In this document: positions 17,862 through 19,013 of the stretch, in pieces
Layout: each line of letters starts with the position of its first letter
Numbering within the stretch: position 1 is the first letter of the stretch
Assembly: GCA_964510585.1 (NCBI GenBank)
Contig: CAZECW010000157.1
Coordinates: 21,063 to 53,062, forward strand
Direction: 5' to 3'
Length of the DNA: 32,000 nucleotides
Origin: an uncultured archaeon
GTDB lineage: Archaea > Asgardarchaeota > Jordiarchaeia > Jordiarchaeales > Jordiarchaeaceae
Notes under the pieces: generated by a model
Seen by the model: only the letters and a program-made list of their open reading frames with translations
What the model was told of the DNA's origin: nothing
Database searches by the model: none
Translations under genes and position numbers: made by a program

Positions 17862-19013
17862 CTATTTTATGAAGTTTAACTTGAAAGTTTTAGGTGTAGC
17901 AAGATATTTTGATATTACGAATATATTTTCGCCAGATTTCAATCCAACATCCTTAAGCCTAAGTTCATCTTCCAAGGGAAAGTATTCCCTGTATGCTATT
18001 TCGGGGTCAGGAATGGCGTATCTTTGGGAAATCTGTACTTTGAGGTCGAAAATTGTAGCATTTGAATCCACGTTCATTTGCTGAGCTTCGCCTCCCAACC
18101 CGCAGAGCCAACAGTCAACTCTTCGCGCCCGATTCAAGCAATCTAGGCCACCACTGATTCCATTATATCGAAACATCTCCACACTTCTAGGTAAGCCAAG
18201 CAAAACTTTAATTGTCTCTTGAGATTGAATCCCCGCTATTATAGCGTTTGTGGTTAGAATGGCGGGCAATTTTGGAGCTATCTTTTCCTGCATTTCTTTT
18301 GCGAGTTCTTCAGATACCCCAGGAACTGAGACCAAGTTTTTCAGTTTGGCGTATTTTAAGTCAAGCTCCGTCTTGTAGCCTCTTAAAAATAATTCTTCAA
18401 CAATATCCAGTGTTAAACCTTTTATGTTGTACTTTTCCAACTCGTTGAATAAATCACGAGGCTTACGTCTTCTCAGGGAACACCAGACCCTCTGCTTCTC
18501 TTTGGGAGGGTAACACTCGTAACAGGGAGTCACATGAGGAATTATTACACGTACGTGGCCAAAGAAACCATGTGTACCTGCATCAATAAAGGGCTTATTT
18601 AGAGACACTGCTAACGAGTTCAGATAGCGGCGTCCCTCAAAATTATCCAAACTACTCAGAAAAATATCAGCCTTCCGATACACATCAATACTAACACACT
18701 CTATACTATCATAGTAAGATTCAACTTCTACATTGGGATTCATTTCAGTCAAGTTACGTTTAGCGGCCACAACTTTGGGTGAACCAATATCTTGGTCTCT
18801 ATACAACATTTGCCTACTTAGATTAGAGAGCTCCACAACATCATTATCTATTATAATTAATTTCCCAAGACCCATAAGAGCCAAATTTTTTGCCGATTCG
18901 CAGCCCAGAGCGCCCATACCCGCAATTAAGACAGTAGAGTTCATTAGTTTATCCTGATTCCAAGCGACACCCATAACATTCACAAGTTTTTGTCTATGAT
19001 AGCGACCCTCCAC
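17862..19013 (-). CDS. Ubiquitin-activating enzyme E1 (UBA2/UBA3-like) with C-terminal ubiquitin-fold domain
   Basis: GMGALG, DNDVVELSNLSRQ, LDNFEGRRYLN, Zn pairs CYEC and CWLC, predicted catalytic Cys178 (WCSL), PAILTTNAIIAG, UFD at aa ~311-370. Confidence 0.92.
   Translation of the reverse strand: MEGRYHRQKLVNVMGVAWNQDKLMNSTVLIAGMGALGCESAKNLALMGLGKLIIIDNDVVELSNLSRQMLYRDQDIGSPKVVAAKRNLTEMNPNVEVESYYDSIECVSIDVYRKADIFLSSLDNFEGRRYLNSLAVSLNKPFIDAGTHGFFGHVRVIIPHVTPCYECYPPKEKQRVWCSLRRRKPRDLFNELEKYNIKGLTLDIVEELFLRGYKTELDLKYAKLKNLVSVPGVSEELAKEMQEKIAPKLPAILTTNAIIAGIQSQETIKVLLGLPRSVEMFRYNGISGGLDCLNRARRVDCWLCGLGGEAQQMNVDSNATIFDLKVQISQRYAIPDPEIAYREYFPLEDELRLKDVGLKSGENIFVISKYLATPKTFKLNFIK

What the first reader, a model, noticed from the sequence alone, without database searches (positions are those of the whole stretch)
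18276..18443. E1 enzyme with a RadA/Rad51-N-terminal-like helix-hairpin-helix domain next to the catalytic Cys
Seen: between predicted catalytic Cys178 (codon 18482-18480) and PAILTTNA is ELEKYNIKGLTLDIVEELFLRGYKTELDLKYAKLKNLVSVPGVSEELAKEM. Established: the RadA/Rad51 N-terminal domain follows L-x2-L-x-G-V...L-x2-aGY-x-T-x-E-x-ia-x-A...L-x2-v-x-GiSE-x2-A and binds DNA; in eukaryotic E1s this position holds the helical SCCH domain. Inference: this E1 could be recruited to or gated by DNA, an architecture I do not recognise.
Basis: partly seen in the sequence, partly recalled or inferred. Interest (0 to 1): 0.8.

Follow-up and report, generated by a model that had tools for sequence, protein, structure and literature searches.

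The report
Archaeal E1 with helix-hairpin-helix cysteine domain
The ubiquitin-activating enzyme of this Asgard archaeon carries, right after its catalytic cysteine, a small five-helix domain of the kind that usually binds DNA (closest to the Rad51 N-terminal domain) where other E1 enzymes have a four-helix "cysteine domain"; this architecture looks real and undescribed, but whether it touches DNA is untested.

Summary
Window 17862-19013 (-) encodes a complete 383-aa E1: a ThiF adenylation domain, two CxxC zinc pairs, catalytic Cys178 and a C-terminal ubiquitin-fold domain. Residues ~185-247 form a five-helix (HhH)2 domain.

Evidence for the fold:
- AlphaFold models, full length and insert alone, have pLDDT 83-85.
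- Foldseek and VIA-align return only (HhH)2 domains. Yeast and human Rad51 NTD come first (Z 8.0, TM 0.67-0.75, 25-31% identity), tied with NusA AR, UvrC, Hef/XPF and DisA.
- Pfam HHH_5 is sub-threshold in this copy (17 bits). It passes the curated cut-off in four orthologues at about 78-82% identity and in a 42% relative (29.7-32.8 bits).

Other Asgard and eukaryotic UBA3-type E1s have, at the same site and with the same length, an insert that matches Pfam E1_4HB. It has no profile similarity to this one (hhalign 1.3%).

The (HhH)2-type E1 occurs in Jordarchaeia/Freyarchaeia and in Aigarchaeota. That includes the family of the Caldiarchaeum subterraneum E1, which was reconstituted in vitro without DNA and whose insert was modelled as a canonical cysteine domain. 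Aigarchaeal copies have lost the second Gly hairpin.

Best reading: the domain replaces the mobile cysteine domain. DNA recruitment remains possible (about 0.2) and DNA gating is unlikely. Earlier scan notes describe this operon type on other DNA, but not the HhH insert.

The parts
17862..19013 (-). E1 (ubiquitin-activating enzyme) gene, 383 aa, GTG start, stop included
   Evidence: ORF list. Pfam ThiF E 1e-60. Best whole-chain fold match is UBA3, TM 0.74. Full-length orthologues at 78-95% identity in the same genus or family.
18504..19013 (-). Adenylation domain, N-terminal part (aa 1-170), with the glycine-rich ATP loop GMGALGCE and the first zinc pair C164/C167 (18513-18524)
   Evidence: Invariant G32, G34, G37, D56, R67, Q68, K80, D123, C164 and C167 in alignment A1. 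Cys codon positions.
18462..18503 (-). Crossover loop (aa 171-184) with catalytic Cys178 (18480-18482) and the invariant basic run R181-R183
   Evidence: Aligns with the Uba1 catalytic Cys. pLDDT is below 50 for residues 172-181, which suggests a flexible loop. C178, L180 and R181-R183 (a few Lys in Aigarchaeota) are invariant or nearly so in 117 family members.
18273..18461 (-). (HhH)2 domain, aa 185-247: helices 185-193, 202-210, 216-220, 224-228 and 235-245
   Evidence: AF2 full-length and insert-only models. Foldseek PDB: the 50 listed hits are all (HhH)2, with RAD51 NTD at TM 0.67/0.75. VIA-align: Rad51 Z 8.0. AFDB Swiss-Prot: UvrC, NusA, RuvA, LigA, DisA. HHH_5 above cut-off in orthologues.
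18411..18425 (-). First hairpin I-K-G-L-T (aa 197-201)
   Evidence: I197 is invariant in the 19-sequence alignment A1 and a conserved hydrophobic (I/V) in the 117-member set. G199 is present in 11 of 12 Jordarchaeia-clade copies. Aigarchaeal copies are one residue shorter here and carry the Gly at position 196.
18351..18374 (-). Family-invariant motif K214-T215-x-x-D218-x-K220-Y221 in the connector helices
   Evidence: K214, T215, D218 and K220 are invariant in 117 of 117 family members. They are also invariant in alignments A1 and A2.
18312..18326 (-). Second hairpin V-P-G-V-S (aa 230-234), followed by helix EELAKEM
   Evidence: P-G-[IVM]-[STN]-E is nearly fixed in the 12 Jordarchaeia-clade copies (G232 in 12 of 12, P231 and E235 in 11 of 12). 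P0048 has a Gly hairpin at the same place. The 105 aigarchaeal copies have L-D-x-K instead.
18102..18272 (-). Re-entry motif PKLPAILTTNA and the C-terminal part of the adenylation domain (aa 248-304), with the second zinc pair C301/C304 (18102-18113)
   Evidence: Aligns to IIPAIATTNA of SUMO E1 subunit 2 and Uba1. P247, P250, C301 and C304 are invariant.
17865..18101 (-). C-terminal ubiquitin-fold domain (UFD, aa 305-383)
   Evidence: The model shows a beta-grasp pattern: E311-316, H321-332, E338-341, E363-367, E375-382. Weak Pfam ubiquitin hit at 312-366. Many orthologues carry PF00240.
19043..19432 (-). E2 (UBC) gene, minimal ORF from GTG; the true start is probably further upstream
   Evidence: Pfam UQ_con E 1.8e-32. 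The upstream frame is open for 30 more codons after a TAA. Orthologous E2s are 139-144 aa.
19615..19860 (-). Ubiquitin gene (81 aa)
   Evidence: Pfam ubiquitin E 1.6e-11.
20933..21697 (+). JAMM/Rpn11-like deubiquitinase gene
   Evidence: Pfam JAB E 5.7e-18. The same gene sits in the orthologous operons.
15835..17824 (.). Three RING-type proteins: 15835-16059 (+), 16087-16809 (-, HExxH plus RING) and 16943-17824 (+, E2-like/RWD plus RING)
   Evidence: Pfam zf-RING_16, Peptidase_M48 with zf-RING_2, and UQ_con/RWD/zf-RING_2. Synteny is conserved in Jordarchaeum contigs.

Best explanation
The gene encodes a catalytically complete, minimal UBA3-like E1 with one adenylation domain, a zinc site, Cys178 and a UFD. 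In most E1s the crossover loop carrying the catalytic cysteine leads into a four-helix-bundle cysteine domain. Here it leads into a 63-residue, five-helix (HhH)2 domain, and the chain re-enters the adenylation domain at PKLPAILTT.

I read this (HhH)2 module as the family's cysteine domain. It would be a rigid body tethered by two flexible linkers that travels with Cys178 between the ubiquitin-adenylate site and the E2 active site. Together with the UFD it would form the cleft where the E2 and the thioester-linked ubiquitin dock.

Shown: the fold, its position, its conservation, and its difference from the canonical insert. Inferred: the mechanical and docking role. DNA binding would at most be an added, lineage-specific property of the Jordarchaeia and Freyarchaeia copies, which keep both Gly hairpins. 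It is not a requirement for catalysis.
For: Enzyme completeness:
- ThiF E 1e-60.
- Cys178 aligns with the Uba1 catalytic Cys.
- Four invariant zinc cysteines.
- UFD present; whole-chain best fold match is UBA3 at TM 0.74.

Fold:
- Five helices in two independent AF2 runs, pLDDT 83-85.
- The 50 listed Foldseek PDB hits are all (HhH)2, with RAD51 NTD first.
- VIA-align over 48,161 chains puts Rad51 first at Z 8.0, followed by NusA AR1, DisA and Hef.
- AFDB Swiss-Prot returns UvrC, NusA, RuvA, LigA and DisA.
- HHH_5 scores above its cut-off in orthologues.

Replacement of the canonical domain:
- UBA3-type E1s of Helarchaeota, Ranarchaeia and eukaryotes have an insert of 70-77 aa between the same CT[LI]..P and IP.I motifs.
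- 11 of 18 of those inserts match Pfam E1_4HB (best E 6e-8) and none matches an HHH family.
- The present family matches HHH_5 in 7 of 18, and E1_4HB is not among its listed families.
- hhalign between the two insert profiles gives 1.3%.

Functional constraint:
- K214, T215, D218, K220 and F209 are invariant in 117 sequences.
- The first HhH is about as conserved between clades (41%) as the adenylation domain (36-51%).

Reach of the active site:
- In the C. subterraneum enzyme, one of the two auto-ubiquitylated lysines lies in what the authors call the active cysteine-containing domain.
- That enzyme works with ATP/Mg and no DNA, and binds its E2 (PMC5654768 and its supplement).

From established knowledge of Uba1-E2, NAE-Ubc12 and SUMO E1 structures, not tested here: the cysteine domain rotates to form the thioester and contacts the E2 opposite the UFD.
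Against: - No structure or assay exists for this family's insert, so the docking and swing role rests on position alone.
- The insert shows no detectable homology to canonical cysteine domains, so functional equivalence is an analogy.
- (HhH)2 domains are predominantly nucleic-acid binders, and the best solved match (Rad51 NTD) binds DNA and nucleosomes.
- The Jordarchaeia clade keeps P-G-[IVM]-[STN]-E nearly fixed, which suggests a function beyond scaffolding.
- An invariant RRR run lies next to the domain.
- In Jordarchaeia the cascade lies next to an AAA-SMC operon.
Confidence: 0.55

Rival explanations
1. DNA or chromatin tethering. The (HhH)2 domain binds DNA backbone non-specifically through its two hairpins. 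This would concentrate or stimulate ubiquitin activation on the chromosome and serve the neighbouring RING proteins and the AAA-SMC complex.
For: - The fold class is overwhelmingly DNA-binding: Rad51 NTD, UvrC, RuvA, LigA, Hef/XPF and DisA fill the hit lists.
- Both hairpins are kept in the Jordarchaeia clade and in P0048.
- The RRR run lies next to the domain.
- Synteny of the ubiquitin cascade with AAA-SMC is conserved in Jordarchaeum contigs whose E1 is 78% identical.
Against: - The C. subterraneum E1, of the same family, is active without DNA.
- The aigarchaeal clade (105 sequences) has lost the second Gly hairpin but keeps the domain.
- Outside the RRRK run the domain is about neutral.
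- Aigarchaeal operons and the P0048 contig have no SMC neighbour.
- Conserved synteny at about 80% identity may reflect only recent common descent.
- E1s normally act upstream of all targeting.
Confidence: 0.2
2. Protein-protein adaptor. As with NusA AR1/AR2 or the ERCC1-XPF HhH pairs, the domain recruits a specific partner (one of the three RING proteins, the AAA ATPase, or a substrate) or mediates E1 dimer contacts, independently of catalysis.
For: - NusA AR1 and AR2 and the ERCC1/XPF and FANCM/FAAP24 HhH domains score within 1 Z unit of Rad51.
- An invariant charged surface motif, K214-T-x-x-D-x-K, is not part of the generic HhH consensus.
Against: No partner was identified. The only complex test (E1 with E2) gave no verdict. 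The RING partners differ between aigarchaeal and Jordarchaeia operons while the motif stays invariant, which points to a core partner (ubiquitin or E2) rather than a lineage-specific one.
Confidence: 0.15
3. A strongly diverged canonical cysteine domain. The insert descends from the same four-helix-bundle insert as in UBA3, and its HhH appearance is convergence or a bias of the prediction.
For: - Same insertion point, same boundary motifs (C-[ST]-L-x-x-x-P, then [IL]-P-A-[IL]) and nearly the same length, about 70 aa.
- UBA3 has an I-x-G-V-T turn just before the re-entry motif, which HMMER aligns with P-G-V-S (3dbr_B row).
- A language-model feature search of an aigarchaeal insert gave SCCH-fragment clusters at 0.76-0.80, which is lead level only.
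Against: - hhalign gives 1.3%.
- The two insert types hit different Pfam families.
- No E1 chain appears in the structural hit lists shown for the insert model.
- HHH_5 passes its cut-off in orthologues from sequence alone, so the signal does not depend on AlphaFold.
Confidence: 0.08

Closest known systems
Candidatus Caldiarchaeum subterraneum E1-like enzyme (CSUB_C1476; Hennell James et al. 2017, PMC5654768)
   Same: Same protein family: Caldarchaeum and aigarchaeal homologues are 37-43% identical over the full length. Same Ub-E2-E1 gene order with JAMM and RING neighbours, same insert position and length, and the same invariant K-T-x-x-D-x-K and RRR motifs. Biochemically it is a working E1.
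   Different: Aigarchaeal copies lack the second Gly hairpin and give no HHH_5 hit. Their first hairpin is one residue shorter. The paper modelled the insert on the NEDD8 E1 as a canonical cysteine domain and does not mention an HhH fold.
UBA3, the catalytic subunit of the NEDD8 E1, and UBA3-like E1s of other Asgard archaea (Helarchaeota, Ranarchaeia)
   Same: Best whole-chain fold match (TM 0.74). Same order of adenylation domain, zinc site, catalytic Cys, inserted domain and UFD.
   Different: Their insert is the PR..EHC-type four-helix bundle (Pfam E1_4HB in 11 of 18). It is unrelated in profile comparison to the insert here. UBA3 needs a second subunit, whereas this E1 has a single adenylation domain and presumably homodimerises (inference).
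Rad51/RadA N-terminal domain, and (HhH)2 domains in general (Pfam HHH_5)
   Same: Five-helix two-hairpin fold. Z 8.0, rmsd 3.4 Å over 63 residues, 25-31% identity to yeast and human Rad51 NTD. Shared G-[IL]-x, G-[YF]-x-T, Y-A and G-[IV]-S-E landmarks.
   Different: Here the domain is embedded inside an E1 rather than placed N-terminal to a RecA core. Comparison with the genome's own RadA NTD is not significant. Rad51 is not separable from NusA AR, UvrC, Hef and DisA by score. DNA binding has not been shown.
Non-canonical E1s without a cysteine domain (MoeB, ThiF, Uba5)
   Same: A single adenylation domain. The catalytic or equivalent Cys lies in a flexible crossover loop.
   Different: Those enzymes have no inserted domain after the Cys and no UFD.

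Membership tests
(HhH)2 domain / Pfam HHH_5 (PF14520) | Two helix-hairpin-helix motifs joined by a connector helix (five helices) | tested here: met
   Helices 185-193, 202-210, 216-220, 224-228 and 235-245 in the full-length model. The same pattern appears in the insert-only model.
(HhH)2 domain / Pfam HHH_5 (PF14520) | Score at or above the Pfam gathering cut-off (27 bits) | tested here: inconclusive
   The window's own copy scores 13.6-17.3 bits, below the cut-off. Four orthologues at about 78-82% identity score 29.7-32.8 bits and a 42% relative scores 29.8, all above it. Two further orthologues score 25.3-25.7.
(HhH)2 domain / Pfam HHH_5 (PF14520) | Hairpin consensus h-x-G-h-[G/S] followed by a helix with a conserved small or hydrophobic pattern | tested here: met
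   The second hairpin V-P-G-V-S plus EELAKEM fits. The first hairpin I-K-G-L-T plus LDIVEELF is a degenerate, Rad51-like version.
(HhH)2 domain / Pfam HHH_5 (PF14520) | Structural superposition on solved (HhH)2 domains | tested here: met
   Foldseek: RAD51 NTD at TM 0.67/0.75, and the 50 listed hits are all (HhH)2. VIA-align: Z 8.0 to 6.7 for Rad51, NusA, DisA, Hef, LigA, ERCC1 and UvrC. Z of about 8 on a small helical domain is moderate on its own. The uniformity of the list and the sequence signal carry the case.
(HhH)2 domain / Pfam HHH_5 (PF14520) | Non-sequence-specific DNA backbone binding | not testable with these tools
   No DNA docking or assay was available. Indirect evidence is mixed.
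Rad51/RadA N-terminal domain specifically | Closer to Rad51/RadA NTD than to other (HhH)2 families | tested here: inconclusive
   Rad51 is first in both PDB searches and has the highest identity, 25-31%. Z values are tied within 1 unit with NusA, DisA and Hef. UvrC and NusA lead in AFDB Swiss-Prot. hhalign and BLAST against the genome's own RadA NTD are not significant.
Rad51/RadA N-terminal domain specifically | Placed N-terminal to a RecA-type ATPase core | tested here: not met
   The domain is inserted inside a ThiF-type E1 between Cys178 and the re-entry motif.
Canonical ubiquitin-type E1 (UBA3/Uba1/Uba2 class) | ThiF/MoeB adenylation domain with ATP-binding residues | tested here: met
   PF00899 E 1e-60. 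Invariant GxGxxG, D56, R67, Q68, K80 and D123.
Canonical ubiquitin-type E1 (UBA3/Uba1/Uba2 class) | Catalytic Cys after the crossover loop | tested here: met
   Cys178 aligns with the Uba1 active-site Cys and is invariant in 117 sequences.
Canonical ubiquitin-type E1 (UBA3/Uba1/Uba2 class) | C-terminal ubiquitin-fold domain for E2 recruitment | tested here: met
   Beta-grasp secondary structure at 311-382. Whole-chain match to UBA3, which includes its C-terminal domain. PF00240 in many orthologues.
Canonical ubiquitin-type E1 (UBA3/Uba1/Uba2 class) | Cysteine domain of the four-helix-bundle or SCCH type (Pfam PF16191, PF10585) | tested here: not met
   P0002 has no hit to either family at E <= 1, and neither is among the families listed for the 18 inserts. 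hhalign against UBA3-type inserts gives 1.3%. Those inserts hit E1_4HB in 11 of 18.
Caldiarchaeum-type archaeal ubiquitin operon E1 | Full-length orthology and Ub-E2-E1 gene order with JAMM and RING genes | tested here: met
   37-43% identity over 97-100% of the length. The family branch has 100% support in the tree. Operon order is shared.

The most novel reading that the evidence does not exclude
In Jordarchaeia and Freyarchaeia, the intact two-hairpin (HhH)2 domain together with the adjacent RRR run anchors the E1 on DNA. Ubiquitin would then be activated and handed to E2 and the RING proteins directly on the chromosome, next to the co-encoded AAA-SMC complex. This would be a DNA-localised or DNA-stimulated E1, something not known in any ubiquitin system.
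Probability: 0.17. Interest if true: 0.85.

Novelty: new variant of a known kind. Interest (0 to 1): 0.56.

Why it matters
E1 enzymes are usually described as an adenylation core that acquired one kind of cysteine domain. That domain was later elaborated into FCCH and SCCH in eukaryotes.

Here an entire archaeal E1 family fills the same site with an unrelated-looking (HhH)2 module of the same size. The family includes the C. subterraneum E1, which has been reconstituted in vitro. Other Asgard archaea already have the eukaryote-type four-helix bundle.

Three consequences follow:
- The cysteine domain may have been acquired, or swapped, more than once.
- The published homology model of the Caldiarchaeum E1 needs correcting.
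- The family offers a small, tractable system for asking what a cysteine domain must do mechanically.

If the domain also binds DNA, it would be the first E1 targeted to nucleic acid. It would tie an archaeal ubiquitin cascade to chromosome maintenance.

Tried and rejected
- Complex prediction with full-length E1 and the E2 (read from the codon after the upstream TAA) gave no verdict: median score 0.02, with one run at 0.56, and no contacts reported. It says nothing either way about E2 docking on the domain.
- Comparisons of the insert profile or the single sequence with the genome's own RadA N-terminal domain were not significant (hhalign probability 3%, BLAST E 0.013 over 14 residues). A specific RadA origin could not be shown.
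- The profile of the whole family's insert against PDB sequences gave only sub-threshold hits: a decapping enzyme at E 0.046, RAD51D NTD at 0.5 and NusA at 0.75-0.9.
- Protein-atlas feature searches gave SCCH-fragment clusters at 0.76-0.80 for an aigarchaeal insert, which is below the tool's trust level, and nothing for the window's insert.
- Literature searches for an HhH domain in E1 or E1-like enzymes found nothing relevant. The Burroughs/Iyer/Aravind E1 survey (PMC2732565) is not held, so I could not check whether it mentions this insert.
- I could not read model coordinates. The orientation of the hairpins and of K214, D218 and K220 relative to the adenylation domain and the UFD is therefore unknown.
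The fold of the aigarchaeal version of the insert, which lacks the second hairpin, was not modelled.
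Full report
**What is there**

Window 17862-19013 (-) is a 383-aa ORF. The flagged bases 18276-18443 translate exactly as quoted and are residues 191-246.

The protein is a complete E1:
- Pfam ThiF matches at E 1e-60.
- Its best matches among solved chains, by sequence, are yeast Uba1, UBA6, UBA7, SUMO E1 subunit 2 and UBA3.
- Cys178 (18482-18480) aligns with the Uba1 catalytic cysteine, and PAILTTNA aligns with the IIPAIATT re-entry motif.
- Four zinc cysteines (C164, C167, C301, C304) and the ATP-site residues are invariant among relatives.
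- An AlphaFold model (pLDDT 83, pTM 0.71) ends in a beta-grasp ubiquitin-fold domain. Its best whole-chain fold match is UBA3, the NEDD8 E1 catalytic subunit, at TM 0.74.

The neighbours are an E2, ubiquitin, a JAMM protease and three RING proteins.

**The insert is an (HhH)2 domain**

Between the flexible Cys loop (pLDDT below 50 for residues 172-181) and the re-entry motif, the model has five short helices: 185-193, 202-210, 216-220, 224-228 and 235-245. Folding residues 180-250 alone gives the same five helices at pLDDT 84.5.

The structural searches agree:
- Foldseek against the PDB lists only (HhH)2 domains in its 50 listed rows. The RAD51 N-terminal lobe comes first (TM 0.67/0.75, 26-31% identity), followed by NusA acidic repeats, Hef, XPF, UvrC and DisA. 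E-values are about 0.04, as expected for a 70-residue query.
- VIA-align against 48,161 representative chains, independent of Foldseek, puts yeast Rad51 78-144 first (Z 8.0, 63 residues). NusA AR1, DisA, Hef, a RAD51 paralogue, LigA, ERCC1 and UvrC follow at Z 7.5-6.9. No E1 appears in the list.
- AFDB Swiss-Prot gives UvrC, NusA, RuvA, LigA, DisA and Hel308.

Sequence evidence is independent of the models:
- HHH_5 is sub-threshold on this copy (17.3 bits).
- It scores 29.7-32.8 bits, above the 27-bit cut-off, on four orthologues at about 78-82% identity and on the 42%-identical P0048.
- phmmer of residues 150-275 aligns the insert with Rad51 NTDs (E 0.04-1.4), while eukaryotic E1s match only the flanks.

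The fold assignment is therefore firm. 'Rad51-like' is the best single label, but Rad51 is not separable from other (HhH)2 families by score.

**It is not the canonical cysteine domain**

A search of 1.84 billion cluster representatives shows a sharp family boundary. Three representatives score about 300 bits, and the rest score 233 bits or less.

Among the next hits are 410-420-aa E1s. Some of these come from Helarchaeota and Ranarchaeia, and some are UBA3-like proteins that I read as eukaryotic from their motifs. All carry a 70-77-aa insert at the same place that begins PR..EHC.
- Eleven of 18 of these inserts match Pfam E1_4HB (best E 6e-8) and none matches an HHH family.
- The present family shows the opposite pattern.
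- Profile-profile comparison of the two insert alignments gives a probability of 1.3%.

So two different small helical domains occupy the same site, with the same length, in otherwise similar E1s.

**Distribution and history**

Close orthologues (78-95% identity) are labelled Freyarchaeota, Freyarchaeum, Jordarchaeaceae or Jordarchaeum.

In a sample of 151 genomes from 27 families of the same phylum, full-length orthologues occur only in the window's own family (6 of 6, counting the window's genome). The other families have UBA3-like or MoeB-like matches. The window's genome has four ThiF genes, and this one gives the only full-length match to the E1 query, UFD included.

All remaining family members (37-43% identity) are from Aigarchaeota, Caldarchaeales or Nitrososphaerota. 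They include Caldarchaeum, the lineage whose E1 was reconstituted by Hennell James et al. (PMC5654768).

A maximum-likelihood tree gives the family 100% support. It splits the family into the Jordarchaeia clade (100%), P0048, and the aigarchaeal clade (97%) as an unresolved trichotomy.

The Jordarchaeia clade and P0048 both have a Gly hairpin in the second HhH. The 105 aigarchaeal sequences have L-D-x-K there instead. The simplest reading is that an intact (HhH)2 was ancestral and that Aigarchaeota lost the second hairpin.

Conservation between the two clades, by region:

| Region | Identity between clades |
|---|---|
| First HhH | 41% |
| Adenylation domain | 36-51% |
| UFD | 30% |
| Second HhH | 20% |

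F209, K214, T215, D218, K220 and the R181-R183 run after the Cys are invariant or nearly so in 117 sequences.

**What it most likely does**

The published C. subterraneum work bears on this directly:
- The E1 forms Ub conjugates and drives the E2/RING cascade in Tris, NaCl, Mg, DTT and ATP with no DNA.
- It binds its E2 on a sizing column.
- One of its two auto-ubiquitylated lysines lies in what the authors, modelling on the NEDD8 E1, called the active cysteine-containing domain. That is this insert.

So in a family member the domain is within reach of activated ubiquitin, and DNA is not needed.

Combined with the position of the domain between two flexible linkers next to Cys178, I infer that the (HhH)2 module is the family's cysteine domain. 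It would be a rigid body that moves with the catalytic Cys and forms, opposite the UFD, the wall of the E2 and thioester-ubiquitin cleft. This matches the role of the cysteine domain in solved Uba1, NAE and SUMO E1 complexes, which is established knowledge and was not tested here. Confidence is about 0.55.

DNA tethering remains possible for the Jordarchaeia copies. They keep both hairpins and the RRR run, and the cascade lies next to an AAA-SMC operon with conserved synteny. Aigarchaeal operons and the P0048 contig have no such neighbour. I put DNA tethering at about 0.2 and strict gating lower. A protein-adaptor role like that of NusA AR2 is a further rival.

**Novelty**

Automatic Pfam tables already flag HHH_5 on some orthologues. 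I found no paper that notes an HhH domain in an E1, and the one experimental paper on the family treats the insert as canonical. I could not read the 2009 E1 survey.

This is a new architectural variant of a known enzyme class. It has moderate-to-good interest for ubiquitin evolution, and high interest only if DNA binding is shown.

Earlier scan notes record this operon type on this DNA and on other DNA, but not the insert.

Noticed in passing
window 19043-19525 (-): The E2 ORF from the first canonical start (GTG at 19432) is 129 aa. The frame is open for 30 more codons upstream, back to a TAA, and encodes what looks like E2 helix 1 (ERYWARLALEAQRIRKEEP). There is no ATG, GTG or TTG in between. 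Orthologous E2s in Jordarchaeum contigs are 139-144 aa. The true start is therefore probably non-canonical or miscalled.
   Followed up: partly
window 10707-21697; L013 and L014: The order JAMM, SBP, Ub, E2, E1, RING, M48-RING, RING, AAA, SMC and two small ORFs is identical in two Jordarchaeum contigs whose E1 is 78% identical. An aigarchaeal operon (L016) and the P0048 contig (L015) have no SMC neighbour.
   Followed up: partly
window 18465-18473 (-), aa 181-183: An R-R-R run (a few Lys in Aigarchaeota) follows the catalytic Cys directly (C-[ST]-L-R-R-R-x-P) and is conserved in all 117 family members. Eukaryotic E1s have C-T-[LI]-[RK]-x-x-P. Its role is unknown; it could stabilise the transition state, contact the E2, or bind phosphate or nucleic acid.
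   Followed up: no
phylum-wide genome sample: Within 151 Asgard genomes the (HhH)2-type E1 is confined to the window's own family. Its nearest relatives are aigarchaeal (TACK) E1s rather than other Asgard E1s. The distribution is patchy and compatible with transfer of the whole operon. The direction is unresolved because the tree gives a trichotomy.
   Followed up: partly
P0123 (Logan contig, 800 aa): The fourth-best representative hit is an 800-aa protein with two ThiF domains in tandem (305 bits to PF00899, two stretches). It is a Uba1-like fused E1 of unknown, possibly prokaryotic, origin.
   Followed up: no
window 16943-17824 (+): A 293-aa protein combines an E2-like/RWD/UEV-like N-terminal region (UQ_con 28.1 bits, RWD E 5e-5) with a C-terminal RING (zf-RING_2, FANCL_C E 0.0012).
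   Followed up: partly
window 16087-16809 (-): A 240-aa protein has an M48/SprT-like HExxH region (Peptidase_M48 E 8e-7, SprT-like E 0.017) fused to a C-terminal RING. It is conserved next to the E1 in Jordarchaeum contigs.
   Followed up: no
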